Assembly: GCA_038087875.1 (NCBI GenBank)
Contig: CM075993.1
Span: forward strand, 6,636,001 to 6,700,000
Length of the DNA stretch: 64,000 nucleotides
Direction: 5' to 3'
Source of the DNA: Malacoraja senta
Taxonomy: Eukaryota
In this document: piece by piece, positions 1-56,017 of the stretch
How positions within the stretch are numbered: the first letter of the stretch is position 1
How the letters are laid out: every line of letters begins with the position of its first letter
The notes under the pieces: model-generated
Told to the model about the DNA's origin: nothing
The model's input: only the letters and a program-made list of their open reading frames with translations
Databases searched by the model: none
Made by a program: the position numbers and the translations under genes

Positions 1-92
1 TTCCCGTGCGGTATCTCTAAACTAAACTAAACAAAATTAAACTCTCCCGCTGCGCCACCTGTGTGAACTAACTGTGGCCTTCCTCTACTCAG

Positions 93-206
93 GTATCAGG
101 GAGAGCGCTGTTTGTGGGACTGGGATTACAATTTATTCTCGGCATCTTCATCATCAGGACGGAGCCTGGCTTTCAGGCTTTCAACTGGCTTGGAGTCCAA
201 ATCCAG
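93..206 (+). CDS. slc28a1: SLC28 exon: [38 protein letters not shown]
   Basis: ctcag|GTA...CAG|gtatgt, 114 nt, phase 0-0. Confidence 0.93.
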
Positions 207-3200
207 GTATGTCCAGAGGGAAGATGTCGTCAAACCGAAACGATTGTCAAATGCACAATGTACAGGTTTCAGGTACATCGAAACTCCTGCTTGTGGCAGC
301 ATCTTCCCAGCTTCTTCCCATCTATTATCAGGCAACTGAACTGTCCTCTCACCAACCAGAGCATAGAAACATAGAAGCATAAAAAACACGTGCACGTAGG
401 CCATTCAGCCCTTTGAGCCAGTACTGACATATATATACACACACACCAGTGGGCAGGTGCTATAGACCTGCACGGGAAGGTAGACGCTCCCGCCCCCACG
501 AGTCTCGGGCAGATGGGGCTCGTCAGCCTGGGAAGGCAGTCCATCTAGGAGATTTAAAACCTCCACTGCCTTGTGGCCATATCCAGTCATGGAAAAGGCT
601 CCAGGAGTGAACCTCAAGAAAATCCGGAGTCGGAGCCCCTAAGGCAGTTCATCGTTCTCTACAACCTCGCACTGGCAGCTACTGCGACGGCGTTGGCTGG
701 CGGTGTGTCAGATTTCTTCCTGAGTCTCAACAAGGTGGTGGGTGTATGGAACGAGCTGCCAGAGGAGGTAGTTGAGGCAGCGACAATCCCAACGTTTAAG
801 AAAAAGTTAGACAGGTACATGGATAGGACAGGTTTGGAGGGATATGGACCAAGCGCAGGCAGGTGGGACTGGTGTAGCTGGGACATGTTGGCCGGTGTGG
901 GAGAGTTGGGCCGAAGAGCCTGTTTCCACGCCGTATCACTCTATGACTCTGTAAGAAATGTCCAAACAGTTTCCGCCACAGACCCATTCATCTCTCCAGC
1001 ATTGTGTTTTTTGCAAGAGGTACAGAAATATTATAACTTTAGATTCAGTGACAGTTTCTTCCCAGCTGTTAAACCAGTGGTGTCAGAATCCCATGAACAA
1101 AGAACAGAAAAGTTTCCATCAGACATAGGAGCAGAATAGGACCATTTAGCCCATCGAGTCATAAGATCATGTGATAGGAGCAGAATTAGGCCATTTGGCC
1201 CATCAAGTCCACTCCGTCATTCAATCATGGCTGATCTATCTCTCCCTCCTAACCCCATTCTCCTGCCTTCTCGCCATAACCCCTGACACCCATACTAATC
1301 AAGAATCTATCTTATCTCTGCCTTAAAAATATCCAGTCTTGGCCTTCTGTGGCAAAGAATTCCACAGATTCACCACCTTCTGATTAAAGAAATTTCTCCT
1401 CATCTCCTTCCTAAAGGAACATCCTTTAATTCTGGGGCTATCTCCTCTGGTCCTAGACTCTCCCACTAGTGGAACCATCCTCTCCACATCCACTCTATCC
1501 AGGCCTTTCACTATTCGGTATGTTTCAATGAGGTCTCCTCTCATCTTTCTAAACTCCAGCGAGTACAGGCCCACTCCGTTTCAATAGACAATAGGAGCAG
1601 GAGTAGACCATTCGGCCCTTCGAGTCAGTACCGCCATTCACTGTGATCATGGCTGATCATCCACAACCAGTACCCCGTTCCTGCCTTCTCCCCGTATCCC
1701 TCTTTAAGAGCCCTATCTAGCTCTCTCTTGAAAGTACCCAGAGAATTGGCATCCAGAGAATTGGAGAGTCCAGAGAAAGCATAAATAGAGCTGTTCTACT
1801 GTGTTCCTTCTCATTATGAAAAAGAACTGTGTGGGAATGTCAACGCCGTGTCTTACTTACCTGTAGATAATAATTCCCCGTTTGTTTTTCCTTGCAGACT
1901 TTTCTGAATTATACGACTGCAGGATCCAGGTTTCTCTTTGGAGATCAGCTGATCGACGGCATTTTCGCATTTCAGGTCATTCTTCTCCATCTGCCCGTTC
2001 ATTCTGTTGAATTTGGTGCCGAGGTTTAACGACTCTGTGATCAACCTGTTAGTGCCAATAAGATGGCGTTGTGTGGAGGACACAATGAGAGGTTAACCTG
2101 GATAAAACGCTTCATACTTAACCCTGCCCGCTCAACCACAATTCCAGATCCAAGGCAGTTGTCTGGCATAGGAATGTTTTTGTTTGGATACTGGAAGGAG
2201 AGAGTCTATATTAGTTAACACTGAAAAATGTAGAGATCAGGGTGGCACGGTGGCACAGCAGTGGAGTTGCTGCCTTATGGAGTCAAAGACCCGGGTTCGA
2301 TCCCGACTACGGGTGCTGCCTGTATGAAGTCTGTACGTTCTCCTCGTGACCCCTGTGGGTTTTCTCCGAGATCTTTGGTTTGCTCCCACACTCCAAAGAC
2401 GTAGAGGTTTGGCTTGGTATGAATGTAAATTGTCCCTAGTGTGTGTGTGTAGGATTGTGTTAATGTGCGGGGATCGCTGGTCGGCGTGGACTCGGTGGGC
2501 CGAAGGGGTTGTTTCCGCGCTGTATCTCTAAACTAAACTGAACTAAAGAAGGAAATGCAGATGCTGATTTACAAAGAAACCGTCACAAAGTACTAGAATA
2601 ACTCACCGGGTCAGGCAGCATCTCTGGAGAAAATGGATAGGTGACATTTCAGGTTGGGACACTTCTTGGACTGAGTCCCGACCCGAAACGTCGCCTATCC
2701 AAGTTCTCCAGAGATGCTGCCTGACCCGCTGAGTTACTCCAGCAATTTATGACTTTTTAGTTAAGAATGAGAACACTGAGGAAGGTCGAACATGATTTAG
2801 TTTTCCCTCCAGTTTAAATACGGATATTCACATGATTTGGCTAAGGTTTTCGAATCTGGAAAGTAGATTTGTTCTTGGTAGCTTGGCAATGCTTGATTGA
2901 ACATGGGGATGTAAGGGTGGATGGCTTAGGGTGGAATCGGGTGAAATTTCAGGTCGTCCAGGACAGAATGTGGCGTTTGTAGCCATGGAGAGCTGAGGGT
3001 CAACACAGCGGTAGAGTTGCTGCCTTACAGCGCCAGAGACCCAGGTTCGATCCCCACTACGGGCGCTGTCTGCACGGACGTTCTCCCCGTGACTGCGTGG
3101 GTTTTCTCCGGGAGATTCGGTTTCTTCCTACACTCCAAAGACATACAGGTTTGCAGGTTAATTGGCTTCTGTAAATTGTATGTTGTGGCTGGTGTGTGTG

Positions 3201-12200: not shown

Positions 12201-15200
12201 GCCAGCACATCCTTCCTCAGATATGGAACCCAAATTAGCACACAGTACTCCAAATGTGGCCTGACCAGCACCTTATAGAGCTTTAAAGGCCCAAAAGAAC
12301 TTTAAAGGCTTCCCTCTTGTCATAGTTCTGTAGGGAAACACCGTTCAATTCTCCCTGGCTGCTTTGAGCTTGGAAGCCGTAGAATACGCCTGCTCTACAC
12401 ATCTATAACGACATCTGAACTCAATAACAACATGTAAAAGACACGTGGATAGTACATGGATAGGAAAGGTTTGGGGGATATGGGCCAAATGCCACATGCA
12501 TTTGGGTGGCACGGTGGCACAGCGGTAGAGCTGCCAACCTCACAGCGTCAGGAACCCGGGATAAATCCTGATCTCGGGTACTATCCATGCGGAGTTTGTA
12601 CATTCTCCCAGTGGATTTTCTCCGGGTGCTCTGGTTTCCTCCCACATCTTAGAGACGTGCAGGCTTCTGTAAATTGCCCCTAGTGTTAGGATGCAAACAT
12701 GGGATGACATAGAACTAGTGTATGGGTGATCAATGGTTGGCATCAGTGGGCCAAAGGGCCAGTTTCCACGCCTATATTCCACGCTTTTAGACTTTAGAGA
12801 TACAGCGCGGAAACCAGCCTTAGTCCCTCGTTGTCCACACTGACCAGCGATCGCCCTGTAGACTAGCACTATCCTACATACTAGGGACAATCCACAATTT
12901 TACCAAAGCCAAGTTATCTACAAACCTGTCTGGGAGGAAACCAGAGCACCTGGAGAAAACCCCCGTGGTCACAGGGAGAATTTACAATCTCTGTACAGAC
13001 AGCACCCGTAGTCAGGATCGAACCCAGGTTTCTGGCGCTGTAAGGCAACAACTCTACCGCTGTACCACCGTGCCGCTCTCTAGACCCTAGACATCAATGA
13101 GACTAGCTTAGAAGGGGCATCTTGGACAGCATAACAAATCTCACTGTACCTTAATTGGTACATGTGACAATAAACTGACCTTGAAACCTTGAGTTGGGCC
13201 GAAGGGCCAGTTTCTGTGCTCGTGACTCGGTGTCTCTACTTCTCCGAGTTAATACTGTATACACACAAAATGCTGGAGTAACTCAGTGGGACAGGCAGCA
13301 TCTCTGGAGAGGAGGAATGGGTGACGTTTCGGGTCGAGATCCTTCTTCAAACTTCGCATCTCGACCCGAAACGTCACCCATTCCCACTCCCCAGAGATGC
13401 TGCCTGCCCCGCTGAGTTACTCCAGCTTTTTGTGTCTATCTTCGGTATAGACCAGCACCTGCAGTTCCTTCCTAAACATGTTCCCACCGGAAATGTTTTA
13501 CTGTGGAAACAGGGACCTGCCGATGCTGGCTAACAAAACAAGGACAAAAGGTGCTGGAGTGTCTCAGCGGGTCAGGCAGCATCTCTGGAGAACATGGACA
13601 GATGAAGCATCTGCAGTTCCTTCCTACACTATACTGTGTACGCCACTCTGGTTGGGGATGTGCATTGTGGATATTGAGCACTGTTTTGTACCGTTTATGC
13701 AGAACATTTGCTCTTACGTCTTCATGCCTCTGGCCTTCATTATGGGAGCTGACTGGGAAGACTCGTTCCTTGTTGCCGAGCTGATTGGAGTCAAACTCTT
13801 CCTCAACGAGTTTGTGGCGTACCAGAACCTTTCCCAGTACAGGAACAAACGTTTAGCAGGAATATCTGAATTTATCAACGGCAAGAAGCAATGGATCTCA
13901 GTGAGTATTGCGTTTTAGAAATAAAAACATAGACAATAGGTGCAGGAGTAGGCCATTCGGCCCTTCGAGCCTGCACCGCCATTCAATGTGATCATGGCCG
14001 ATCAATCAACAGTATCCCGTGCCTGCCTTCTCTCCATACCCCCTGATCCCTTTAGCCACAAGGGCCACATCTTAAATATAGCCAATGAACTGGCCTCAAC
14101 TACCTTCTGTGGCAGAGAATTCCAGAGATTCACCACTCTCTGTGTGAAAAATGTTTTCCTCATCTCGGTCCTAAAAGACTTCCCCCTTATCCTTAAACTG
14201 TGACCCCTTGTTCTGGACTTCTCCAACATCGGGAACAATCTTCCTGCATCTAGCCTGTCCAACCCCCTTAAGAATTTTGTACGTTTCTATAAGATCCCCC
14301 CACAATCTTCCAAATTCTAGTGAGTACAAGCCGAGTCTATCCAGTCTTTCTTCATATGAAAGTCCTGCCATCCCAGGAATCAGTCTGGTGAACCTTCTCT
14401 GTACTCCCTCTATGGCAAGAATGTATTGCGGCAGATTTCTTTTAGTGTAGCTTAGAGATACAGCACAAAAACAGGCCCTTCGGCCCACCGAGTCCGTGCT
14501 GACCAGCAAACCACTGCACACACTAGGGACAATTTTAACTCAATCTAACACACACTGGGGACAATGTTACATTTATAACCAATGCAATTAACCTACAAAC
14601 CCTGTACATCTTTGGAGTGTGGGAGGAAACCAAAGATCTTGGAGAAAACCGGGTAGAACGTGCAAACTCCTTGCAGACAGCACCCGTAGTCAGGATTGAA
14701 CCCGGGTCTCTGGCGCTGTGAGGCAGCAACTCTACCGCTGCGCCACCGTGCTGCCTAATGTGAAAGTCAAAAGTGAAACTTCAGCCAACAAGTAGCCAAG
14801 GAACTGCAGATGCTGGGTCACAAAAAAAAGGCACAAATTGCTGGAGTAACTCAGCCTCTCTGGAGAACATGGATGCCGGTGATGTTTCGGATTTGGGACC
14901 TTTCTTCAGACTGATGGTGGAGGAGAAGAAGCAAGCTGGGAGAAAGGTGAGGCAGGACAAAGCCTGGTGAGTGAGACGTGTGGGTTTGTGGGTTAATTAG
15001 CCTCTGTAAAATGCCCCGAATGTGCAGGGCATTGATGTGAAATTGGGACAACAAAGAACTAGTGTGAACGGGCAAGCAACGGTGGGCGTGGACTCGATGG
15101 GCCGAAGGGCCTGTTTCCATGCTATATCTCTGACCTAAACTAGAGGCTACAGAGGCTTCTACAAAGGCTAGTTTGGTCAATGGGATTAGCACAGATGAAT

Positions 15201-38160: not shown

Positions 38161-38626
38161 CTACCGAAGTTTGACAGTCTTGGGGATCTCCACTGTTTTG
38201 TGCTTCACGGCTTCCTGGGAATCCTCCGCACTGCCATCCTTAGGGGCGACGTTGGGGTCTGCGGTGTTCTTCCGAGAAGCTTGTGGGCTTGATAGGCCTT
38301 TCCGTGGGACCAGTGGACTGGTCTGTCCTTTCCGTTGGACCAGTGGACTAACCTGGCCCTTCCTTTGGGACTGAGGACTAGCCTGGCCCTTCCTTTGGGA
38401 CTGAGGACTAGCCTGGCCCTTCCTCTGCATCTGAGGGCTGGACTGGGCTGACTGAACCCTCCTGGTCATCGATGGGCTCTTGGATCCCTTGGGTTTATGC
38501 GGTTGGAGGCTGTCGACGTTTTTCAATGACTTCAGCAACAGCGCCTCACACAAGTGGTTGCACTGATGGGTGTCGGGAAACTCTTCGATGACGGAGGAGG
38601 AACAATTTCCGGTCAGGCCCTGATAC
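38161..38626 (-). CDS. alpk3: ALPK3 terminal coding exon (YQGLTGNC...HQCNHLC...KTVKLR*)
   Basis: tcgcag|G TAT, 466 nt, TAG at 38163-38161. Confidence 0.94.
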
Positions 38627-41600
38627 CTGCGAAAGGAAATCCAATTCAGTGAGGAGAAGAGATTTTAAAGAAGAAATAAAGACACTGAGTTGAGACCCTT
38701 CGTCAGACTGAAGAAGGGTCTCGACACGAAACGTCACCCATTCGTTTGTCCAGAGATGCTGTCTGACCCGTTGAGCTACGCCAGCTTTCCGTGTCTATCT
38801 TCGGTTTAAAGCAGCCTCTGTAGTTCCCTCCTACACATAAAGACACAGAGTGCTGGAGTAAAGGGCCTGTCCCACTTGGCGATTTTTTTTGGCAACTGCC
38901 GGCATCATGGACTGTCGTATCAGGTCACCGATATATGACGCGGCGTGATGACGTATGCCGCACGGTGTATTTTCAAGTGTCGCAACATTGTTTTCGTCTT
39001 CGCTGGATTTTGAAATGTTCAAAATCTTTTGGCGACACTGATATGAAGCCTGAAGTCGCCGAAAAAAATTGCCAAGTGGGACAGGCCCTTAGCTCAACGG
39101 GTCAGGTAGCATTCCTTGGAGAATGTGATTCAGATCAGAACACTAGTCTGAAGAAGCGTCCCAGCCTCGACACTAATAAACTAAGCTGAAAGTTTCCTAT
39201 CCAGCTACAAAATGAGATGCTTCCCGACCCGAAATGTCACCTATCTATGTTCTCAAGAGACACTGCCTCACCCGCAGTTACTCCAGCACTTTGCATCTTT
39301 TTTTTTTACCCAACAGCAGCAGTTCCTTATTTCTCCAAATGTTTTGCAATGCTAGACTAAGGAAGGATGTTTCCAGCTCTCGAAAATAAGCAGCAAAAAT
39401 AAGATAAGGACTAATAATTCCAACAGGAATTCAGAAGAAACATCTTTCTCTAACGTACTACTATAAAGGACACATAGTGCTGGAATATCTCAGCAGGTCA
39501 GGCAGCAACTCTGGAGAACATGGATTGGTGATGTTTTGGGTCGAGACCCTTCTTTTCTTCTTGTCTGAGGAAGGGTCTTGACCTGAACATGTCTCAGGTA
39601 TATATGACAATAAAACACTCTTGACTAGGAGGAGTTTAGTTTACAGGAACAGGCCCTTCGGCCCACCAAGTCGGCACTGACCAGTGATCCTGGCACATTA
39701 GCACCACTAGGGGCAATGGACACATAAACCAAGCCAATTGACCTACAAACCTGGACGTCTTTGCAGTGTGGGGGGAAACTGAAGATCTCAGAGAGAACTC
39801 AAAGAGTCACGGGGAGAACGTGCAAACTCCGTACAGACAGCACCCGGGTCTCTGCCTCTGTCAGATAGCAACTCTACCACTGCACCACCTTGACTTGAAA
39901 CAAACTGTGACGTCTCTGACTACAATTTCCCAATTCTCTCTGGCGAAAGAACTGGTTGTATTGCTGTTTATAAAGGGAGGTGGGGAATAAAGCATGTATT
40001 TCATGGTGAGGGGTGGGGTTGATAGACAGGTGGTTGGTACAACTTGTTGGTCTGACCTGGATGAATGATAATCTTGACTTACCCTTTGGAATTAGTAGCG
40101 ATCTGCACACTGGTGATCTTCAGACCCACCCCTATGTCGAGAAGGGAACAGGCGAGAAAGAAAACTGTTCAATGAGCAATCACGTAGTTTCTTAAGACTA
40201 ACTTGTGTCACTATTCTGGCCTAATGTGGGGTGCAGCAGAGATTTGTAGAGTTAGTCAGAGTTCCATTTAGGCGACTCTTTAGGCGACTGCCAGGGACTA
40301 ATTTTAATGGAATTCACCTCTGACACCTGGCGACAACCTACGACAGCAAAAATTGTCGCCACTGTAGTTGCCCAAAAAATTGTCGCCACTGTAGTTGCCC
40401 AGTCTCCTGTAGTTGCCCAAAAAATCGCCTAAAGGGCCTGTCCCACTTGGCCGTCATTCGTGCGCCATTTACGCGAACTGCTAGTGTGTGGGTAGCGTGG
40501 GACGGGCGCATGGAGTGGTGTGGAGGAGTGTGGACTTCGCCCTGCACTAAATCTTCACGCGCCACCGGCCTGTCGCGTAACTGACGGCCAAAGCGGGACA
40601 GGCCCAAGACCCTGACGCGGCACAACGTCTCACCTCCAACAGCAGCTGAAGCAGGCAAACGATCACCGAGCTCGGCCTGGGGCTCACGGCCGTTGCGGAT
40701 CAGGATCCGCCCCCACTCCTACTCCCAGAGCAAGGCCAAGACGATTGGAGATAGACACAAAATGCTGGAGTAACTCAGTGGGACAGGCAGTATCTCTGGA
40801 GAGAAGCAATGGGTGACATTTCGGGTCGAGTTCTTCAGATTGAAGAAGTCTCGACCCGAAACATCATCCATTCCTTCTCTCCAGAGATGCTGCCAGTCCC
40901 GCTGAGTTACTCCAGCATTTTGTGTCTATCTTCAAATGACGTCACGCGCTCCAGACGGCTGTGCGGACGCATGATGACACACGCGACCGTCACGCGTCAG
41001 TCACTACCGGCCTGTCGAGTAAATGACAGCCAAGTGGGACAGGCCCAATGAATCTCATTCAATGTGCATAGCAACACCTGAATATAGCTCCCATTATTCA
41101 GTTTAGTTTAGAGACAGCGTAGAAACCGGCCGAGTCCACACTAACTAGCGATACCCGCACACTAACGCAATCCTACACACTAGGGACAATTTGCAATTTT
41201 TACAGAAGCCAATTAAGCTGCAATCCTGCACTTCTTTAGCGTGTGAGACCAGAGAGAATGAATACAGAGAGAATGTTCAAGCACCCATAGTCAGGATCAA
41301 ACCCGGGGCTCCGGTGCTGTAAGGCAGCAACTCTACCGCTGTGCCGTGCTACAGTAAAGTCTGAAGTTAATTATAACCCTACCTTGCAAGTCAGTCACCA
41401 GCAGGTTGCAGTTTGTCCATTGGTAAATCCAGTGTTGAAAGGCGTGACACTTCTGTACGACTTCAGAGCCGATCTCACCCGCCAGATTCTTGCTCTTGTC
41501 CTCCATTGCATACTTCACAAATTGCCCCATCAAGTCCCTCTCGATGGTTGCATAGGGTATATTGTTGCCAGGGCGATAGAGCAAATGCAGGGGGATTATC

Positions 41601-44600
41601 CTGGGAGCACACATCCAGGTCAGCCACAAATAGCCATCGTTTTGTAAAATTAAGATGTATAAATGACAAGCACTTACTCTGGCACGGGTCCGAACCCTTC
41701 CACTGCACGCGTCTCAGCGGCAAATATTTTACTGTACTCTCTGGCTGTATTTTGAAGCTTACATTCCTGTAAAGTTAAAAGATAAAATTAGTAACTTTAA
41801 AACAAAATCCAATGTTACCATCTCCACCTGCATTGGATAGGAAAGGTTTTGAGATATGGGCAGGTGAGACCAGCGTAGATGGGGCATTTTGGTCGGCATA
41901 GACAAGTTGGGCTGAAGGGCCTGTTTCAATGCTGTGTGACTCTATGACACAGAGAGCACCACAAAGGCGGCATGGTGGCGCAGCAGTAGAGTTGCTGCCT
42001 TTACAGCACCAGAGACCCGGGTTCGATCCTGATTATGGGTGCTCTGTACGGAGTTTGTATGTTCTCCCCGTGAGCTGCGTGGGTTTTCTATGCGATCTGC
42101 GGTTTTCTCCCATGCTCCAGAGACGTACAGGTTTGTAGGTTAATTGGCTTTGTATAAATGTAGATCTCCAATCCCTTTCCCCTGACTCTCAGTCTGAAGA
42201 AGGGTCTCGACCAGAAACGTCACCTATTCCTTTTCTCCAGAGATGCTGCCTGACCCGCTGAGTTACTACAACTTTTTGTGTCTATCTTCAATGTAAATTC
42301 TCCCTTTTGTGTAAGATAGTGTAAGTGTGCGGGGATCGCTGGTTGGCACGGACTCGTGGGCTAAAGGGCCTGTTTCTGCGCTGTATCACTGAACTAAACT
42401 AGCATTAGAATCACAGCCATATCTACTGGCATCAGACTAACTCCACCACCACTTTTAGTTTCGAGATAAAGCATGGAAACAGGCCCTTTGGCCCACCGGG
42501 TCCACGCCCTTTGGCCAACCGGGTCCACGCCCACCAGCGATCCCCGCATATTAACATTATCCTACACCCACTAGGGACAATTATTACAATTACCAAGCCA
42601 ATTAACCTACAAACCTGCACGTCTTTGGAATGTGGGAGGAGACCGAAGATCTCGGAGAAAACCCGCGCAGGTCACGGGGAGAACGTACAAACTCCGTACA
42701 GGCAGCACCCGTAGTCGGGATCGAACCCAGGTCTCCGGCGCTGCATTCGCTGCAAGGCAGCAACTCTACCGCTGCGCCACCGTGACTGCCCTTTTCAGGA
42801 TGTGGCAAAATGGCGGTGATACGTTGCGACTCTTTGCGTACAGACCCCAGAGGATGCTCTATCATCCATACAGCATGGAAACAGGCCCTTGGCCCACTGA
42901 ATCCAAGCCGTCCAGCGATCACCCGTACAATCTACACGCCAGGGATAATTGACGGAAACCAAATGCTAATACATACAAATGCAAAAAAGTTCCATGGTTC
43001 GTTTAAATTTCCTCTACACCACTCATCAAGGATGACTAGAAAATAGGGAAAGCCATCCATAGGTGTATTGCAATAGAATACAGTCTGATATCATAGAATC
43101 ATGGAACAGTATGACTCAGGAACAGGCCCTTCGGCCCACAAGGTCTATGCCGAACATGATGCACAATAAATTCATCTGTTGGCATGTGATGGAGTGGATG
43201 TGGAGATGATGTTTCCAATAGTGGGAGACTCTAGAACCAGAGGGCACAGCCTCAAAATAAAAGGATGTTCCTTTGGAATGGAGATGAGGAGGAGTTTCTT
43301 ACGACAGAGGGTGGTGAATCTGTGGAATTCGTTGCCACAGACGGCTGTGGAGGCCAAGTTATTGGGTATTTTTAAAGCAGAGATTCTTGATAAGTAACGA
43401 CATCAAAGGGTACAGGGAGAAGGCAGGAGAATGGGGTTGAGAGGGAAAAATAGATCAGCCACGATTGAATGGCGGAGTAGACTTGATGGGCCGAATGGCC
43501 TAATTCTGCTTCTATGTCATATGATATTATGGTCTTATGATCCCTGTCCCTCCGTTCCCTGCATATCAATGTACCCATTTAAAAGTCACTATCGTATCTG
43601 CCTCCAACACCACCCCTGGAAGTGAGTTTTAGTTTAGTTTAGTTTAGTTTAGAGATACAAAGTGGAAACAGGCCCTTCATCCCACCGAGTCCGTGCCAAC
43701 CAGCGATCCCCTTACACTAGCTCTATCCTACGCACTATGGACAATTTACAATTTTACTGAAGCCAATTAACCATCAAACCTGTACGTCTTTGGAGTGTGG
43801 GCGGAAACCGAAGGTCTCGGAGAAATCCCACGTTGACAACAATGGCAGAATACTGGCGAACCCGTCACCCTCTTGCTCCGCACAATGCAGTGAGCCACTT
43901 CTAACAAAGGGCGTGACTTACTTGCATAGTGAGATCGTGGTTGCTTTCAACAAGTCCACCATCAGGCTTGGTCCCGTAAGAAATGTAGTTCCGCACTTTG
44001 ACAATACAGGTGGCGCCAGATTCGAATATCGGCTCCAGTCCGTAGATGACTTTCACCCGGCTTGCTTTGCGGCGAAAACCATCACCGACGTTGAGCTCCG
44101 TGGTCATGATTCTGCCGAAGAGCTTATTGCCCCAAAATCCCGTGTCCGTCAGTCCTTTGGTGATCGGCATGGGTGTCATCTCGATCTCCTCACCCACTGG
44201 AACACACACCCACGACAACACAGGTTATAAAGAATGATGAGGACATGGGATAAGGGAAAATATTGGTGGGCCAATTCAAAGCTTGTGCCTTACCTTCAAT
44301 CTCTTCTCTTGAAACAAATCCAGTCAACACTAGAGCAATAAACAGAAAGATTTTAATATGCACCAAAATAAATAGGGCAACTGCTTATATGGTGGTGACA
44401 AGAAAATGGAGTCTATTCACACCGTGCCTTGCAAGACTTTGGATCGCTCCCACGTCTTTTACTGCCACTGACATATTAATTGAGTTAATACTCTACTCGC
44501 TGGAGTTTAGAAGGTTGAGGGGGACCTCATTGAAACTTACAGAATAATGAAGGGCATAGATAGAGTGGATGTGGAAAGGATGTTTCCACTGGTGGGAGAG

Positions 44601-47600
44601 TCTAGGACCAGAGGTCATAGCCTCAGAATTAAAGGGCGCTCTTTTCGAAAGGAGGTGAGGAGAAACTTAACTAGTCAGAGGGTAATTAATCTGTGGAACT
44701 CATTGCCACAGAGGGCTGTGGAGGCCAAGTCCGTGCATATTTTGAAGGCAGAAAGAGGCAAATTCTTGATTAGAACGGGTGTCAAGGGTTATGGGGAGAA
44801 GGCAGAAAGGCATGAGGAGGCAGAGATCAGCCATGATTGCATGGCGGAGTAGACTCGATGGGCCGAATGGCCTAATTCTACTCCCATAACTTGTGAACGT
44901 GAATTGAGTTTAGTTTATTGTCGCGTGTGCCAAGGTACAGTGAAAAGCTTTTGTTGCGTACTAACACAAAGACAATACACGATTACAATCGGGACATCCA
45001 CAATGTACAGATACATGATAAAGGGGATAACGTGAATAATGTTTAGTGCGAGATAAAGTTCGATCAAATATAGTCCAATCAATTCCAATGAGGTGAATCG
45101 TAGCTCAGGACCGCTCTCCAGTTTAGGTTAGTTTAGTTTAGAGATACAGCGCAGAAACAGGCCCTTCGGCCCTCCGAGTCCACACCGACCGGCGATCCCC
45201 GCACATTAACACTACCCGACACACACTAGCAACAATTTTACATTTATACCATCTTTGGAGTGTGGGAGGAAACCGAAGATCTCGGAGAAAACCCACGCAG
45301 GTCATAGAGAGAACGTACAAACTCCGCACAGACGACCACCCGTAGTCAGATTCGAACCCGCGTCTCTGGGGCTGTAGGGCAGTAGTTCTACCGCTTACGC
45401 CACCTTGCCGCCCAAGTTGTTGGTTGGATGGTTCAGTTGCCGGCTAACTGTCTGGGAAGAAACTGTCCTTGAATCTGGAGGTGTGCGTTTTCACACTTCT
45501 ATACCTTTTGCCCGATGGGAGAGGGGAGAAGAGGGGGTGACCGGGGTGAGACTTGTGCCTTGATTACGCTGCTGGCCTTGCCGAGGCAGCGTGAGGTATA
45601 AATGGAGTCAATGGAAGTCAATGTCGGTTTGTGGTGTAGGAAAGGCAACACCTATTTTCACCAGAGCAATGGTACCACATACATTTACAAGATAAATACC
45701 ACATAGAACATAGAACAGTACAGAAGATAGACACAAAATGCTGGAGTAACTCAGCGGGACAGGCAGCATCTCTGCATGGAAGGAACGGGTGATGTTTCGG
45801 GTCGAGACCCTTCTTCAGCATAGGAAAGGGGCCTTGGATATCATGCCAACCAAACGCTTTTCATTATATTGTTTAAGAAGGAACTGCAGATGCTGGAAAA
45901 TCAAAGGTACACAAAAATGCTGGAGAAACTCAGCGGGTGCAGCAGCATCTATGGAGCGAAGGAAATTGGCAACGTTTCGGGCCGAAACCCTTCTTCAGAC
46001 TGGGCACACGTGACAATAATGAACCAATACCAATATTGAATGCCAAGTCTGAACAAGGGTCTCGACCCGAAACGTCACGCATTCCTTCCCTCTAGAGATG
46101 CTGCCCGTCCCGCTGAGTTACTCCAGTATTACGTGTCGATCTCCAATACTTACTTTCACTGCTCAGCAGGAGATCCGTGGCATCTGAACCATACTCATTT
46201 TCCACCATGCATCTGTAAACGCCGCAGTCCTTCGCTGAGGCTTTTACAATGGCCAACGATACTTGACTCTCATCGCCAGCGCTGGAAGAATCCAGGAAGG
46301 AAGAAATAACAAACATTAGCTGGATCTGGAACAGTGCAGTCCCCGCCATATCTCCCCCCCCCCCACCCCCCTCCTCAGTTGGAAGGAAGGTGGTTTCTGA
46401 CAGGAGTCCACTGCCAAGTGAGAGGAACGGCATCTAAACTTGTCCACAGTGTTTCCCAGGTGAAATTACAATAAGGAACCGATCCACTTGGAACAAGCAA
46501 GCAAAGTATCTACCATTGGGTGCCCGGAGCAAGGAAAAAAAGCTGGTGGTGCCTACCTTCGCTTCAGCTTGTTCAAGTGTAGTCCATCCTTGTCCCATCT
46601 GATGGTGGAGTCACTCAGCACATTGAAGAACTGACACCACAGCTTCAGGTTCCCAGAAGCATCTGAGAATTGCTCTGCTCTAATCTTTCGAATGACCTGT
46701 GGAGCTAAAGGCGGCAAAACATGAAGGTCAGTCACAGGGTTGGTCATCAGTGAATGGTGGCCATTAGCACATCCGTAAATGGAAGCCATTACACAGCAGC
46801 AAATGGTGGCCGTTGAGAAACAGATCCAACAGTTCACACCTCAAACTGGATATGACGGACATACATTGGACTCAATTCCCTTCAAGAGCATTGAAGAGAG
46901 GAATTTACAAGAAGTCACATATTAGCTAGTTAAATATTCCTTTCTTAAGTCGCCACAAAGTATTTGCCTTCTAGTCCAGCTGGCAATGTTCATAAGTTCT
47001 AGAAACAGAATTAGGCCATGAAGTTTGTTCAAGAAGGAACTGCAGATGCTGGAAAATCGAAGGTAGACAAAAGTGCTGGAGAAACTCAGCGGGTGCAGCA
47101 GCATCTATGGAGCGAAGGAAATAGGCAACGTTTCGGGCCGAAACCCTTCTCAGACTGCCATGAAGTCTGCCATTCAATCATGACTGATCTATCGTTCCCT
47201 CTCAACCGCATTCTCCTGCCTTCTCCCCATAATCCGTACTAATCAAAGTATGTTTCTTTAAACCATTCTGTTTATCTTTGAATGACTTTGTGAGTCAGTT
47301 AACAGGGATGATTACAAAAGTGAAGAAGGGGCCCCGATCGGAAACATCGTGTGTCCATGTCCCTCCACAGAGGCTGCCTGACCCATTGAGTTCCTCTAGT
47401 AATTTGTTTGGTTTAGAGATACAGCGCGGAAACAGGCCCTTCGGCCCACCGTGTCCACGCCGACCATCGATCACCTGTTCACACGAGTTCCATGTTATCC
47501 CACGTTCACCACACATTAGGGGTAATTCACAGAGGGCCAATTAACCTACAACCCCGCACATCTTTTGGGGTGGGGGAAACCGGATCACCCGGAGGAAACC

Positions 47601-50600: not shown

Positions 50601-53130
50601 GTCTAACTAGCGTCCATGAAAAACTAAGCCGAATTTGTCCATTGTCGGGCTCTGTTACATCAGTGATAGGAACAGAATAAGGCCACTCGGCCCATCAGCT
50701 ACTCCACCATTCAATCATGGCTGATCTATCTCTCCCTCTCAACCCCATTCTCTTGCCTTCTCCCCATAACCCCTGACGCCTGTACTAATCCAGAATCTAT
50801 CTATCTCTGCCTTAAAAATATCCATTGACTTGGCCTGCACAGCTGTCGGTGGTAATGAATTCCACCCTGTTTGATAAAGTCCTTGTTATCCAAAGTCGTC
50901 GTGCCCTCCTACCTTTTAAGAGGTTCTTAGCTGACTTGGCATCCTCAGTTTTCGCTCCACTTTTGCCAGGGTCCACGGAACTCTCTACTTTGTCCGCAGG
51001 CTCCTCGTACAGCTTGGGCACTTCCAGCGTGGACATCTTGCGTGCTGTCGTTGGGGATCGCCTCTCCAGTGGCGCATTCTGCTGCACCGCAGGGGCCTGC
51101 AACAGTGCCACGCTTCTCTTGAGCGCCAATGGGAAGCGAGCCGGCTCCTCCTCGGCGTGGCTGGCATCCCCCTCGGCAAGGACCTTCCTCGCCACCTCCT
51201 CTTTCTTCGTGTGCACCGACAAGGCGGGCAGGTCCGCCGCCAGCGCTTCAGATTCCTCCACTTGTTTGGACCTGGGCAGGAAGATCTTGCGGCGGGCACC
51301 TGAGGCGAGTTCCGCCGGCGTGGCGGATGGGATGGCGGGCAGAGCGTCGATGGGCTTCATCTTGGCGCTGGAGCCTTGCGCAGGCGGGACTTCTTTCTTC
51401 ATTGCCTCGGTATCCTCTACTCTCTCCTGCGTTGTGCTCTTCAATGCTACGTTGTCCACCACGATGAATGGCACTTGGCTTATTTCCACCCGTACATCTG
51501 AAGTCATCTTTGTTGGCTGCGAAACATCTACATCGTCAGTACTTTGTCTTGGAGCAGGAACCAATGTCACTTGCAACAGATTAGATCGGTCACCGCTAAT
51601 TTCCCCAGCACTATTTTGTTCCTCTGCTTTATCTACCAGACTCTTGTGTGTGGTTAAGTCCATTTTACTTTCACTCACTCTACCTTGCTCTTCCTCTGGA
51701 CCTTCGAGGCTCTTGACGTCCAAGCTTGCTGGAGCAGAAGAGACCATTCCAAGCCTTGGAAGTCTTAATGCCTCCACTTGACTTGGTTGAGTATACTTGT
51801 CCAATGGCATCTCAGGGGCAGCTGTTGGTTGAAGAGGTGTCTCGCGATCCTCCGTGTCCACCACATCAGGAGCACTGCCATCGTCAAGGGTGGTCCAGGA
51901 TGCAACGTTGGAGAGGGGAGCACTTGACGATGGCGGCACAATGATAGCAGTGCCCACGTTAAGTTCTTCCACGGTGGTCAATAGTGACCTAATGATGAAT
52001 TCAACGGGGTCAATATCTACATCTGCTGGTGGCGCATCCAATGGATGGTCTTCTTCGGGAAGATGGTGATCTTCAGTGCTGGCTGGGAGCACGTTTGCTG
52101 CAGTTGGGGAAACGTCCGACTCCAACGATATCTCCACGCCAGTGGCTACCAATTCAGATGTATCTGTATGTTCCTTAGTTTTGTGCAGCTCACCCTTGTC
52201 TGAGAGTAGATCCGGGACAGGCAAGTTATCGGCTGTTGCTTCTGGTTTTCCCACTCTGGTGACAGATTTTTCACCCGACAGAAAACTGGGTAGCTTTAAG
52301 TACGATAGAAACTTTTCGACCAAGTGCGTGCCAAAACCATCTGCGGACGTGTGGGCCGGCTCCACCTCCTCCTTGGGTCTCGCTTCCTTCTCCTCATTGA
52401 CGTTCAACAGTTCGTCTTCCACCTCAGCCACCATTTCCTCAGAGACTTTCTCGTTCTCGACACTCTCCTCGCGAGAAACCTCTTCAACCAAAGGAACCTC
52501 CGAACCAGTGGATGGAGCATCAGGCTGAGAACCTGCGACAACTTGTTGGCCTGGTATCTCCTCTACAACTAGAGGCTCTTCGTCTACAAGTATCATCTTC
52601 TCTCCGGAGGTTTGAGGGATAGCAACGATTTGGGAGCCGACGGCAAGAGGTGTGGTGGAGATTTCCATTGCTTTGATATCGGTTGTGCTCTTCAATGCTA
52701 CGTTGTCCACCACGATGAATGGCACTTGGCTTATTTCCACCCGTACATCTGAAGTCATCCTTGTTGGCTGCGAAACATCTATATCTTCAGTACTTTGTCT
52801 TGGAGCAGGTACCGTTTCATCACTGGGAACCAATGTCACTTGCAACTGGTGGGCAGTCTGGTTTATCCTTCCAGCCACTGGGCTAGCTTCTTCATCACTC
52901 TGAGGTGGTGATGTGCCTTCCCTGCGGCAGTCCATCAGCTCCGCCTCCGTCTCCCCAGAGGCCAAGGTGACAGGGACGGGCGTCTCGCCCGAGATATCCG
53001 TTAGCTCCGAGCTGCTGGGGATGTCCAATTTCTCCCACTCGTCGCTGACGGTACCAACGCTGCCCTCACTGTCCACCTTCTCCGAGACGGGGGAACTATT
53101 AGGTTCTGCCCCTTGCCTTAGCCCCATGGC
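38161..53130 (-). CDS. alpk3: Alpha-protein kinase 3, 3' part of gene (large low-complexity exon, Ig-like domain, alpha-kinase domain, basic tail), 9 coding exons
   Basis: Spliced exons total 3627 nt (1208 aa + TAG) in consistent phase. Motifs [80 protein letters not shown] and HQCNxxC match ALPK3. Confidence 0.96.
38269..38439 (-). repeat. Coding 30-bp tandem repeat (SPxxxRKGxx, about 6 units) in the ALPK3 last exon
   Basis: Exact 30-nt periodicity; units GCCTGGCCCTTCCTTTGGGACTGAGGACTA are nearly identical. Confidence 0.93.
38862..39089. mobile_element. PIF/Harbinger-type MITE (228 bp)
   Basis: TIR AGGGCCTGTCCCACTTGGC; flanks TAA/TAG splitting the host consensus gctggag-TAA-ctca. Confidence 0.88.
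40083..40131 (-). CDS. alpk3: ALPK3 49-nt exon ([17 protein letters not shown])
   Basis: acatag|GG...GG|gtaagt, phase 1-2 fits both neighbours. Confidence 0.9.
40433..41047. mobile_element. Composite Harbinger-type MITE with two right ends
   Basis: Left TIR AGGGCCTGTCCCACTTGGCCGTCA; right TIR-like copies end at about 40606 and 41047. Confidence 0.75.
41383..41600 (-). CDS. alpk3: ALPK3 exon ([18 protein letters not shown]...LLVTDLQ)
   Basis: tcccag|G...G|gtaggg, 218 nt. Confidence 0.96.
41678..41766 (-). CDS. alpk3: ALPK3 exon ([29 protein letters not shown])
   Basis: ttacag|GAA...GA|gtaagt, 89 nt. Confidence 0.95.
43922..44196 (-). CDS. alpk3: ALPK3 exon, alpha-kinase N-lobe (VGEEIEMTP...HDLTMQ)
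   Basis: ttccag|TG...CAA|gtaagt, 275 nt. Confidence 0.96.
44294..44329 (-). CDS. alpk3: ALPK3 36-nt micro-exon ([12 protein letters not shown])
   Basis: ctctag|TG...G|gtaagg, phase 1-1; joins the flanking exons in frame. Confidence 0.9.
44490..44900 (+). mobile_element. CR1-type LINE 3' fragment
   Basis: ORF 44547..44852 ORF2 C-terminus plus 3' UTR. Confidence 0.88.
46154..46281 (-). CDS. alpk3: ALPK3 exon, Ig-like domain part 2 ([42 protein letters not shown])
   Basis: ttccag|C...A|gtaagt, 128 nt; DxGxYxC I-set motif. Confidence 0.95.
46557..46704 (-). CDS. alpk3: ALPK3 exon, Ig-like domain part 1 (APQVIRKIR...KLKR)
   Basis: ctttag|CT...AG|gtaggc, 148 nt. Confidence 0.95.
49272..49752 (-). 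mobile_element. Penelope-like 3' remnant
   Basis: ORF 49547..49753 ([41 protein letters not shown]) followed by UTR and terminal module. Confidence 0.8.
50913..53130 (-). CDS. alpk3: ALPK3 large exon (2218 nt, acidic/Pro/Ser-rich)
   Basis: ttccag|GCC ATG...AAA G|gtagga; corresponds to ORF 50812..53127; ends KNLLK before the Ig exon. Confidence 0.92.
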
Positions 53131-56017
53131 CTGGAAAACACAAGCAGAAGAGAGGTGGCCTTTAACTTAGGCTCAAAAGTTATGCCAAAGAAGTTCAGCC
53201 ATTTGGGCTTCATTTGCTCGGGAGAAGGAGCTCATAAAGATTGTTAATCGTGAGTGGGTTAAAAAAAGACACAAAGTGCTGGAGTCACTCAGCGGTTCAG
53301 ACAGCATCACTGGAGAACATTAATAGGTGGCGTCTCTAGTCAGGACCTTTCTTCCGACACCAGTCTGGAGAAGGGTCCCGACCCGAAATGTCACCTGACA
53401 GGTCACCAATCCATGTTCTCTAGAGATGCTACCTGCCCCGCTGAGTTACTCCAGCATTGTGTGTCATTCAATCATGGCTGATCTATCTTTCCCTTTTAAC
53501 CCCATTCTCCTGCCTTCTCCACATGACATTTGAACCCTTACGAATCAAGAATCTGATATCGATACTCCTCATGATTACACAGTTTTCCTTCCACTTGCTT
53601 CAGGGAAAATGGACCCAGTCTCTCCAGCCTCTCCTTATAACTCAAATCTTCCATACCCGATAATATCTGAAGAAGGGTCTCGACCCAAAACGTCACCGAT
53701 TCCTTATCTCCAGAGATTTTGTCTATCTATTTGTGTATCTCTTCATAGACCATTTTTTCATCTTTTCCTGTATAATGACATTGTTCCTGCTGCAGGGAGA
53801 CCAGAACTGTATCTGAAATGTGGCCTCGCCAACATCTTGTACAGCTGTAACATGACCACCCAACTCCTGACTCAATACACTGACTGAAGCAGACTGGTCA
53901 AAATATATAGTTAAATGTTAGAAAACCCTTCACACTCACACACTACCCAGGAATCATAAATACTGTTTAATTCAGCACCCATTTCATTCGATATGTTAGT
54001 AAATTTCACACATATTAATAAAAGTACAGTAGGAGTCATAAAAAATTCTTTCACGCTCTCAATAGGTTCTTGGTTTGGGGACAACTCCATCCGATGACAA
54101 GAGACCTCAGAGAAGGACACAAGATGCTGGAGTAACAGCGGCTCACGCAGCGTTTCAGGAGAACATGGAGAGGTGACGTTTCGGGTCAGGAACCATCTTC
54201 TGACTGAAAGATAAAGGTGGGGCGGACTGGAGGCGAGAAAAGGCTGGAACATATCAGTGCCGGCAACAGATGACCTCAGGAAGGGTGGAGCCCGTTTCGG
54301 GTCGAGACCCTTCTTGACAGAGAGCAGGAGGAATCACAGAGGAGCAGCAAGGAAGTCCCTTTCCCCTGACTAGTCTGAAGAAAGGGTTCAACCCGAAACA
54401 TCACCCATTCCTTCTCTCCAGAGATGCTGCCTGTCCCGCTGAGTTACTCCAGCAGTTTGTGTCTATCTCCCCTCTACTTCATTGGAGACTTTTGAACTAT
54501 CTATAATCGGACTTCAATGTTATATAAATGTTGTACATTTTACCCTTTATCTATGCACCATGGACAGCTTGATTGTATTTATGCATAGTCTTTTCTTTGA
54601 ATAGCATGCAAACAGAAGCTTTTCACTGTACCTCGGTGCTCGTGACAATATTAAACCAAACTACTGTGCTGGAAGGAACTGCAGATGCTGGTTTACACTG
54701 AAGATAAACACAAAATGCTGGAGTAACTCAGCGGGACAGGCAGCATCTCTGGAGAGAAGGAATGGGTGACGTTTCGAGTCTGAAGAAGGGTCTCGACCCG
54801 AAACGTCACCCATTCCTTCTATCCAGAGATGCTGCCTGTCCCGCTGAACCAAACTAACTTTTGTCAGAATTAGTGGCTAAAACTTTATATGCAGCAGGCT
54901 TCCACAAAACAGAGAGTTGCAGTGACTTTAGTTGATGGGGGAAGGCTGGCTGGGAGACAAGGACAACTCCCACCAGCTTAACACGTGCCAGAGGATCAGT
55001 TATCTCACAGCAGAAGGCAGATAAAATAACATCAGAAGCAACTGCGGTTGACAGGAGAGATTGAGAGTTTGATTATCATTGAAGCTGCCTTATCAGAGTG
55101 TTAGGATCACATGCTTTATGAATGACTAGACCAAGTGGGACTCGTTGGGTCCCGTTTCGTCCAAATTCATAGATTAGCAGGTTTGTGCCTCTGTGTTAAG
55201 AACCAATATGTATATGAGTAAGTTTCATTTAGTACAGCACAGAAATAGGCCCTTTGGCTCACCGAGTCTGCACCAACCAGCGATCCCCGCACATTAACAC
55301 CATCCTACACACACTAGGGACAATTTACATTTATACCAAGCCAATTAACCTAGAAACCTGGCAGGAAACCAAAGGTCTCGGAGAAAACCCACCCACATCA
55401 CGGGGAGAACGTGCAAACTCTGTACAGACAGCACCCGTAGTCGGGATCGAGCCCGGGTCTCCGGCGCTGTAAGGCAGCAACTCTACCGCTGCGCCACCAT
55501 GTCGGCCTTGCACATTTAAAATGTCCCCACAGCACTTCTAAGCTGAGGACAAAAAGCAGCTGTAATCAGGGCGGTGTTAGATTACTCAGCGAGCTCACAG
55601 TAAGATTCATTCCAATCATAAAGCCCAGGAACTCTTGAAAGAGATACAGTAAAACTCCGATAATCTGCAACCTGACTATTCGGGAGGGGTGACTCGATAG
55701 AAGTATAACAATATTATGAGGGGCGTAGATGGGATAAAGAGTCCGAACCTTATTCCCCAGGGTGGGAATGTCTAATAATAGTTGGCATAGATATCAGATA
55801 GGAGGGGGGAGTTTAATGGAGATGTGTGAGGCAGGTTTCTTTACACAGAGAGTGATGAGAGCCTGCACCGTACCGCCAAGGGTGGTGGTGGAGGCAGATA
55901 CGATGATGGCATTTTAGAGGCTTTTAGCCAGGCAAGGAATGGAGGGATGTGGATCATGTACAGGCAGATGAGATCAGTTTAAGATCTAATTTCCTAACGT
56001 CACAGAATTAGAAAGCA

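What the first reader, a model, noticed from the sequence alone, without database searches (positions are those of the whole stretch)
40083..41766. ALPK3 kinase domain lacks the metal-binding Asp but keeps residues human ALPK3 lost
Seen: the 49-nt exon reads KITSVQIAT (ACC AGT GTG). Established: alpha-kinases such as eEF2K, TRPM7 and MHCK A have a TDPQI-type motif whose Asp binds metal. As recalled, human ALPK3 keeps this Asp (KMTDVQIAT) but has lost the helix-C Glu (QGCKIQN), the Gln of DLQG (DLAG) and the Asn of the Gly-rich loop (GLKESC), and is debated as a pseudokinase. This ortholog shows the complementary pattern: CIVKV Lys, QECKLQN Glu, VTDLQG, GLTGNC and the Zn ligands are present, but Asp is replaced by Ser. 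Inference: catalytic residues decayed independently in different lineages, which supports a scaffold role.
Basis: partly seen in the sequence, partly recalled or inferred. Interest (0 to 1): 0.7.

Follow-up and report, generated by a model that had tools for sequence, protein, structure and literature searches.

The report
Skate ALPK3 lost one catalytic aspartate
The skate version of the heart-muscle protein ALPK3 has serine in place of a magnesium-binding aspartate and is likely inactive as an enzyme, while five sharks keep a complete-looking active site that would give a natural test of the disputed question whether ALPK3 can act as a kinase.

Summary
The window encodes skate ALPK3 (minus strand). 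Its 49-nt exon (40131-40083) reads KITSVQIAT, and the Ser codon AGT lies at 40111-40109. Contigs of sequencing runs show the same codon, and a relative's intron-less contig uses this exon. Ser is the only departure among 21 conserved alpha-kinase positions; TRPM7 D1775A is reported at under 1% activity.

The skate-versus-human reading is too simple. All 8 scorable skates and rays lack the Asp (3 Ser, 5 Gly). Non-mammalian bony vertebrates mostly have Asn (218 of 233 rows), as do both monotremes. Therians have Asp (113 of 115 rows), so human Asp was probably regained rather than kept. The paralogue ALPK2 keeps Asp in 60 of 60 rows. Five of 9 sharks keep a complete site, including all four residues published as lost in ALPK3, but slow evolution could explain this.

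Verdict: a real, likely inactive variant of a protein already described as a pseudokinase. The shark proteins are the interesting test case. No earlier scan finding made this point.

The parts
40083..40131 (-). 49-nt kinase exon, [16 protein letters not shown]
   Evidence: canonical splice sites and open frame; used in an intron-less contig of run X20
40109..40111 (-). AGT (Ser) at the metal-binding Asp position (human ALPK3 D1784, mouse TRPM7 D1775, MHCK A D766)
   Evidence: codon; ungapped match of the shark motif to TRPM7, eEF2K and MHCK A; residue equivalences
41383..41600 (-). 218-nt kinase exon with hinge Gly and Lys, first zinc His, catalytic Asp (41392-41390) and Gln (41386-41384)
   Evidence: Pfam Alpha_kinase PF02816 E 5.9e-16
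41678..41766 (-). 89-nt kinase exon starting with the helix-C Glu (41766-41764)
43922..44196 (-). 275-nt kinase N-lobe exon with P-loop GDGFRRKAS and the ATP-site Lys (43999-43997)
   Evidence: 97% identical to Leucoraja ALPK3
38161..38626 (-). last coding exon: GLTGNC (Asn 38607-38605), zinc ligands in HQCNHLC, repeat-rich tail, stop codon
44295..44330 (-). short exon-like stretch matching residues 1440-1451 of Amblyraja isoform X1; boundaries approximate
   Evidence: tblastn
46154..46281 (-). exon for the second half of the Ig domain before the kinase
   Evidence: Pfam I-set E 1e-05
46559..46705 (-). exon matching residues 1348-1396 of Amblyraja ALPK3 (100% identical); boundaries approximate
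   Evidence: tblastn
50896..53133 (-). large low-complexity exon of ALPK3 (residues 655-1353 of the Amblyraja protein, 80% identical); boundaries approximate

Best explanation
This is the skate ALPK3 gene, whose alpha-kinase domain has Ser where active alpha-kinases have a Mg/ATP-binding Asp, so it is likely a folded but catalytically dead domain that would serve as a binding scaffold at the muscle M-band, as reported for mammalian ALPK3. Shown: the Ser; the presence of the other 20 of 21 conserved positions; loss of this Asp in all 8 scorable batoids. Predicted: an intact alpha-kinase fold. Inferred: without the carboxylate the domain cannot hold Mg and orient the ATP phosphates, so no phosphate is transferred. 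Inferred: the path was Asp (GAY) to Gly (GGY) in the batoid stem, then Gly to Ser (AGY) in the skate group holding this species, Leucoraja and Amblyraja, each a single-base step. Inferred: catalysis has been dispensable for ALPK3 since early vertebrate history, so each lineage eroded different residues at its own pace; slowly evolving sharks still look intact, and therians regained Asp from Asn.
For: Residue table over 70 hand-picked rows: the query has 20 of 21; 8 of 8 batoids lack the Asp. Tally over 427 rows: ALPK2-class rows have Asp in 60 of 60; non-mammalian bony ALPK3 has Asn 218, Ser 7, Lys 3, Cys 1, gap 2 and Asp 2 of 233 (the 2 Asp rows are owl models that lack the normal exon); monotremes Asn 2 of 2; therians Asp 113, Asn 2 of 115. 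The skate's own ALPK2-type paralogue keeps all 21 positions. At nine catalytic columns, ALPK2 varies at 0 of 9 against 158 of 236 other columns (Fisher p 7e-5, 54 rows), whereas cartilaginous-fish ALPK3 varies at 4 of 9 against 118 of 236 (p 1.0, 18 rows). Mutant data: TRPM7 D1775A under 1% activity (review table, PMC4197629); MHCK A Asp766 called catalytically essential (PMC4876393); PDB 3lmi is titled the inactive D766A form. The model of the 98%-identical Amblyraja domain has mean pLDDT 84.7 and matches TRPM7 kinase 1ia9 at Z 24.6, rmsd 3.4, 237 aligned. Mammalian ALPK3 lacked detectable activity in phosphoproteomics (PMC9698156), and a catalytic-Lys mutant mouse is cited as unaffected (PMC12132735).
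Against: No activity or ATP-binding measurement exists here for any fish ALPK3. The published mutants are Asp to Ala, not Ser or Gly. One study reports that recombinant ALPK3 kinase domain raised 500 phosphosites (PMC11358020). Five sharks keep a complete site, and five catalytic columns (Lys66, Gly146, Asp191, Gln193, Asn217) are unchanged in 18 of 18 cartilaginous fish. The direct comparison of catalytic columns, 4 of 9 against 0 of 9, gives only p 0.08, and the rows are related, so these p values are rough. The order of events has no formal reconstruction behind it.
Confidence: 0.6

Rival explanations
1. ALPK3 stayed a working kinase in early jawed vertebrates and still is one in several sharks (Heptranchias, Pristiophorus, Cetorhinus, Carcharodon, Scyliorhinus). 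Activity was lost late and separately in batoids, bony vertebrates, chimaera and some sharks. The skate domain is still dead under this reading, but it is one base-level history away from an active enzyme.
For: These five sharks match 20 of 21 positions, and the only change is Val189 to Ile, also seen in 2 of 60 ALPK2 rows. They keep all four residues published as ALPK3-specific losses. A shark domain scores higher against Pfam Alpha_kinase than a skate one, 156 against 135 bits.
Against: Four of 9 sharks and the chimaera have lost at least one scored residue. Intactness in the five is within what their low divergence gives (0 of 9 against 40 of 236 variable columns, p 0.36; the five were picked after seeing the data). 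All 17 elasmobranch rows have Glu four residues after the hinge Lys, where ALPK2 has Lys or Arg in 60 of 60 and TRPM7 has the phosphate-binding N1731. Both cyclostome rows of the ALPK3 clade are degenerate.
Confidence: 0.25
2. The skate and ray domain is still active or binds Mg-ATP productively, because another group replaces the lost carboxylate, for example the elasmobranch Glu four residues after the hinge Lys.
For: The eight other catalytic columns are unchanged in 8 of 8 batoids. The Glu is present in all batoid rows. Activity has been reported even for the mammalian domain, which lacks more residues.
Against: The batoid conservation is not beyond chance (0 of 8 against 49 of 236, p 0.36). 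The site tolerates both Gly and Ser. Loss of this Asp reduces TRPM7 activity below 1%. The position of the Glu relative to the metal site was not measured in the model.
Confidence: 0.1
3. The Ser is an assembly error, or an alternative exon with Asp is used.
For: None found. X1 and X2 may be the assembly's own source, so they are not independent support.
Against: Same codon in runs of two further organisms; same Ser in Leucoraja and Amblyraja models; no Asp-type exon in 38627-41382; only 2 matches among 4 candidates scored in the own genome, the second being the ALPK2-type gene.
Confidence: 0.01

Closest known systems
Mammalian ALPK3 (alpha-protein kinase 3, Midori), described as an M-band pseudokinase (PMC9698156) and as an active kinase (PMC11358020)
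   Same: Orthologue: falls in the ALPK3 clade with support 99/100; Ig domain directly before a C-terminal alpha-kinase domain; 57% identical to the gorilla kinase domain.
   Different: Keeps the helix-C Glu, hinge Gly and Lys, Gln and Asn that therians lack, and lacks the Asp that therians have.
ALPK3 of Leucoraja erinacea and Amblyraja radiata (annotated gene models)
   Same: 96% and 98% identical over the kinase domain, same Ser.
   Different: Nothing at the scored positions; the gene is annotated in these species, but the Ser was not discussed in the papers my searches returned.
ALPK2 (heart alpha-kinase)
   Same: Closest paralogue; matching exon layout over the kinase domain in the skate's own copy; 51% identical.
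   Different: Keeps the Asp in 60 of 60 rows; its catalytic domain raised tropomyosin phosphorylation in transfected cells (PMC11599786 passages).
TRPM7, eEF2K and MHCK A alpha-kinase domains
   Same: Same fold (Z 18-25) and the same DxQG...TD spacing in the shark sequence.
   Different: All have Asp at the position where the skate has Ser; they are established active kinases.

Membership tests
Alpha-kinase domain (PF02816) | Profile match and alpha-kinase fold | tested here: met
   Exon match E 5.9e-16, above the cut-off; model of the 98%-identical Amblyraja domain matches TRPM7 kinase at Z 24.6, rmsd 3.4, 237 aligned
Alpha-kinase domain (PF02816) | Zinc site of two His and two Cys | tested here: met
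   His177, His230, Cys232, Cys236 present
ALPK3 orthologues | Groups with ALPK3 and not ALPK2 in a kinase-domain tree | tested here: met
   Sister to Leucoraja ALPK3, inside a 43-row clade with support 99/100
ALPK3 orthologues | Ig domain directly before a C-terminal kinase domain, after a large low-complexity exon | tested here: met
ALPK3 orthologues | SLC28 nucleoside transporter gene as neighbour | tested here: inconclusive
   SLC28-type exons at 72-371 and 13451-13915; that human ALPK3 lies beside SLC28A1 is recalled and comes from no call
Catalytically competent alpha-kinases | P-loop Gly and Arg, ATP-site Lys, bridging Glu, helix-C acid, hinge Lys, catalytic Asp, Gln, Thr, Asn | tested here: met
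   All present in the query, scored against the table of PMC9698156
Catalytically competent alpha-kinases | Metal-binding Asp (TRPM7 D1775, MHCK A D766) | tested here: not met
   Ser, codon AGT at 40111-40109
Catalytically competent alpha-kinases | Measured phosphotransfer | not testable with these tools
   Needs a biochemical assay
Pseudokinase scaffold of the M-band | No activity, M-band location, binding to myomesin, SQSTM1 or MuRF proteins | not testable with these tools
   Reported for mammals only

The most novel reading that the evidence does not exclude
ALPK3 is still a true kinase in several living sharks and became a pseudokinase at least four separate times in jawed vertebrates. Skates and rays are a natural single-residue knockout of the shark enzyme, and the human Asp1784 is a later regain in an already dead site. 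Shark and skate domains would then form a matched active/inactive pair that settles the ALPK3 dispute and reveals its ancestral substrates.
Probability: 0.25. Interest if true: 0.7.

Novelty: new variant of a known kind. Interest (0 to 1): 0.45.

Why it matters
ALPK3 variants cause cardiomyopathy, and published work disagrees on whether the protein is a kinase. The sequence argument for 'pseudokinase' used mouse, chicken, frog and zebrafish orthologues and named four residues as lost in ALPK3. All four are present in this skate, in the 7 other batoids, in the chimaera and in five sharks, so that argument does not extend to cartilaginous fish. Shark (complete), skate (one change) and mammal (five changes) give a graded natural series with a built-in candidate positive control, which assays on the mammalian protein lack. 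It also suggests that human Asp1784, treated as a conserved residue and mutated as such, is not conserved across ALPK3 orthologues.

Tried and rejected
No formal ancestral-state reconstruction was obtained, so the order of events rests on residues in living species and counting changes by eye. The run search listed no holder on record as RNA; run X22 laid nothing on the exon; neither says anything about expression. Laying runs on the full 6.2-kb stretch was swamped by repeats and its difference table was cut, so the codon was re-read on a 211-base stretch. The Narcine ALPK3 model lacks the 49-nt exon and could not be scored; one chimaera model (P0122) and two owl models (P0059, P0064) lack the normal exon and were not counted as evidence; 31 of 456 proteins covering too little of the domain were dropped before the tally. 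No sawfish, guitarfish or invertebrate ALPK2/3 was identified among the named rows. Column-variability tests within batoids, sharks and the five complete sharks were not significant (p 0.36-0.46). The short paper on the Lys knock-in mouse (PMC10697696) is not held and is known to me only as cited in PMC12132735. Searches for ALPK3 with pseudokinase, with evolution/shark, with orthologs/zebrafish, with chondrichthyan and with elasmobranch returned no paper on catalytic residues of cartilaginous-fish ALPK3; each returned only PMC13143021, whose passages concern the origin of the TRPM6/7 kinase. Most subscription papers are not in that library. Figure S1 of PMC9698156 is an image I could not see; it may already show Asn in chicken, frog and zebrafish. 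A seven-protein alignment was not used.
Full report
What the locus is. The window holds the 3' part of an ALPK3 gene on the minus strand. Six exons with canonical AG/GT edges join into one open frame: 46281-46154, 44196-43922, 41766-41678, 41600-41383, 40131-40083 and 38626-38161. One exon matches Pfam Alpha_kinase and the upstream one an I-set Ig domain. The N-lobe exon is 97% identical to Leucoraja erinacea ALPK3, and the kinase domain is 98.4% identical to Amblyraja radiata, so the source is a skate. In a 60-row tree the query is sister to Leucoraja inside the ALPK3 clade (99/100), apart from the ALPK2-type rows. A search of the own genome with one exon gave 2 matches among 4 candidates scored: this gene and an ALPK2-type gene on contig C1.

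The observation. The 49-nt exon reads KITSVQIAT with Ser as AGT at 40111-40109. Contigs of runs X1 and X2 match the region without a difference, though they may be the assembly's source. Run X3, another organism, differs nearby but not at the codon. A 6397-nt contig of run X20, a third organism, tiles four exons without introns and carries the same codon; the tool labels this run 'RNA? (probably DNA)', but an intron-less contig is what a spliced transcript gives. No alternative exon with Asp was found between the flanking exons (score 51 against 19 for the next best).

Which residue it is. The shark motif DLQGVGLKLTDVQI aligns without gaps to TRPM7 DLQGVGENLTDPSV, eEF2K DIQGVGDLYTDPQI and MHCK A DIQGVDDLYTDPQI. 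[quoted passage not shown] A review table lists TRPM7 D1775A, Q1767A/N, K1727A and N1731V at under 1% activity and N1795A at about 2% (PMC4197629 passage). A model of the Amblyraja domain (pLDDT 84.7, pTM 0.85) matches TRPM7 kinase at Z 24.6, rmsd 3.4, 237 aligned, so the fold is predicted intact. Against 21 positions (the 19 of that Table S1 plus the ATP-site Lys and the helix-C Glu) the query misses only this one.

How the site looks across vertebrates. Of 456 proteins fetched by then, 425 covered the domain and were tallied with the query and the skate paralogue; rows include isoforms and are not species counts. ALPK2-class rows, sorted by identity: Asp in 60 of 60. Non-mammalian bony ALPK3: Asn 218, Ser 7, Lys 3, Cys 1, gap 2, Asp 2 of 233, the last two being models without the normal exon. 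Monotremes: Asn 2 of 2. Therians: Asp 113, Asn 2 (manatee, Suncus) of 115, with Gly at the helix-C Glu in 111, Ala at the Gln in 112 and Ser at the Asn in 112. In a 70-row table, mostly one row per species, all 8 scorable batoids lack the Asp: Ser in the query, Leucoraja and Amblyraja; Gly in Rhinoraja, two Mobula, Hypanus and Hemitrygon. Eight of 9 sharks have Asp (Mustelus has Ala). Five sharks differ from the canonical set only by Val to Ile. Stegostoma has the hinge Lys changed to Arg; both Chiloscyllium also lose the P-loop Arg and helix-C Glu; the chimaera loses the P-loop Arg. The lamprey and hagfish rows in the ALPK3 clade have Asn at the catalytic Asp.

What follows (inference). The query's codon AGT is one base from GGT (Gly), itself one base from GAT (Asp), and the Gly state is found in Rhinoraja, which branches just outside the Ser skates, and in the rays. 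This fits Asp to Gly to Ser. For therians, keeping Asp throughout would need six separate losses (ray-finned fish, coelacanth, lungfish, amphibians, sauropsids, monotremes), five of them to the same Asn. One change to Asn at the bony-vertebrate base, one back to Asp in therians and one to Cys in lungfish needs three. So human Asp is probably regained. I have no formal reconstruction for either step.

Is catalysis under constraint in sharks? In ALPK2 the nine catalytic columns are far more conserved than the rest (0 of 9 against 158 of 236, p 7e-5). In 18 cartilaginous-fish ALPK3 rows they are not (4 of 9 against 118 of 236, p 1.0); the direct contrast is p 0.08. Within sharks it is 4 of 9 against 72 of 236, and the five complete sharks are too similar to show constraint (p 0.36). 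All 17 elasmobranch rows also have Glu where ALPK2 has Lys or Arg and TRPM7 has N1731. This leans towards catalysis being dispensable early, with sharks intact through slow change, but it does not exclude activity in the five.

What is known. Agarwal et al. (PMC9698156; abstract, passages and one supplement's passages) call human ALPK3 a pseudokinase and name G1725, K1729, Q1769 and N1797 (TRPM7 numbers) as lost in ALPK3 orthologues of mouse, chicken, frog and zebrafish. McNamara et al. (PMC11358020; passages) report activity of the recombinant domain. Feng et al. (PMC12132735; passages) cite a catalytic-Lys mutant mouse with normal heart function. A 2026 gene-therapy paper (PMC13561881; passages) says its phosphosite data do not directly implicate kinase activity. 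I also read passages of PMC3268225, PMC2827801, PMC13143021 and PMC11599786. My searches returned no paper on the active site of cartilaginous-fish ALPK3.

Verdict. The Ser is real and shared by skates; the domain is likely inactive (best explanation 0.6). It is a new variant of a protein already described as a pseudokinase. The part worth following is outside the window: all four residues published as lost in ALPK3 are present in skates, rays, the chimaera and five sharks, and those five sharks keep the Asp too. That makes the kinase-or-not dispute testable with a shark/skate pair. Interest 0.45; 0.7 if shark ALPK3 proves active (probability about 0.25).

Noticed in passing
bony-vertebrate ALPK3 proteins: The two proposed metal ligands are swapped in charge: Gln/Asp in ALPK2 (60 of 60) and sharks, Glu/Asn in 209 of 233 non-mammalian bony rows, Ala/Asn in monotremes, Ala/Asp in 110 of 115 therian rows. 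One carboxylate tends to remain, which could mean metal or nucleotide binding is kept; batoids, salamanders, tuatara and monotremes have none.
   Followed up: partly
teleost and amphibian ALPK3 proteins: The catalytic Asp itself is often replaced (Gln, Arg, Thr, Asn, Ile, Val); it is Asp in only 145 of 233 non-mammalian bony rows.
   Followed up: partly
window 41503-41501 approx. (residue four after the hinge Lys, minus strand): Glu in all 17 elasmobranch ALPK3 rows, against Lys or Arg in 60 of 60 ALPK2 rows and Lys in chimaera; aligns with TRPM7 N1731.
   Followed up: partly
window 44330-44295 (minus): A stretch of about 12 codons matches Amblyraja isoform X1, which is 12 residues longer than isoform X2, so it is probably an alternatively used micro-exon between the Ig and kinase domains.
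   Followed up: no
window 38315-38446: A 30-nt tandem repeat in the last exon encodes repeats of the type [10 protein letters not shown] in the C-terminal tail.
   Followed up: no
window 72-371 and 13451-13915 (plus): Exons of an SLC28-type sodium-dependent nucleoside transporter on the opposite strand to ALPK3.
   Followed up: partly
G000:C1, about 369,830,291-369,841,295 (loci L003, L004): The skate's ALPK2-type kinase exons, with all 21 conserved positions intact.
   Followed up: yes
proteins P0241, P0232, P0237: A Petromyzon protein keeps 20 of 21 positions and lies outside the ALPK3 clade on a long branch, while a Lampetra and a hagfish protein in the ALPK3 clade keep 14 of 21.
   Followed up: partly
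protein P0001 (Acipenser sinensis, flagged unverified): Holds repeated copies of the Ig and N-lobe exons with no C-lobe in the matched part; probably a faulty gene model.
   Followed up: no
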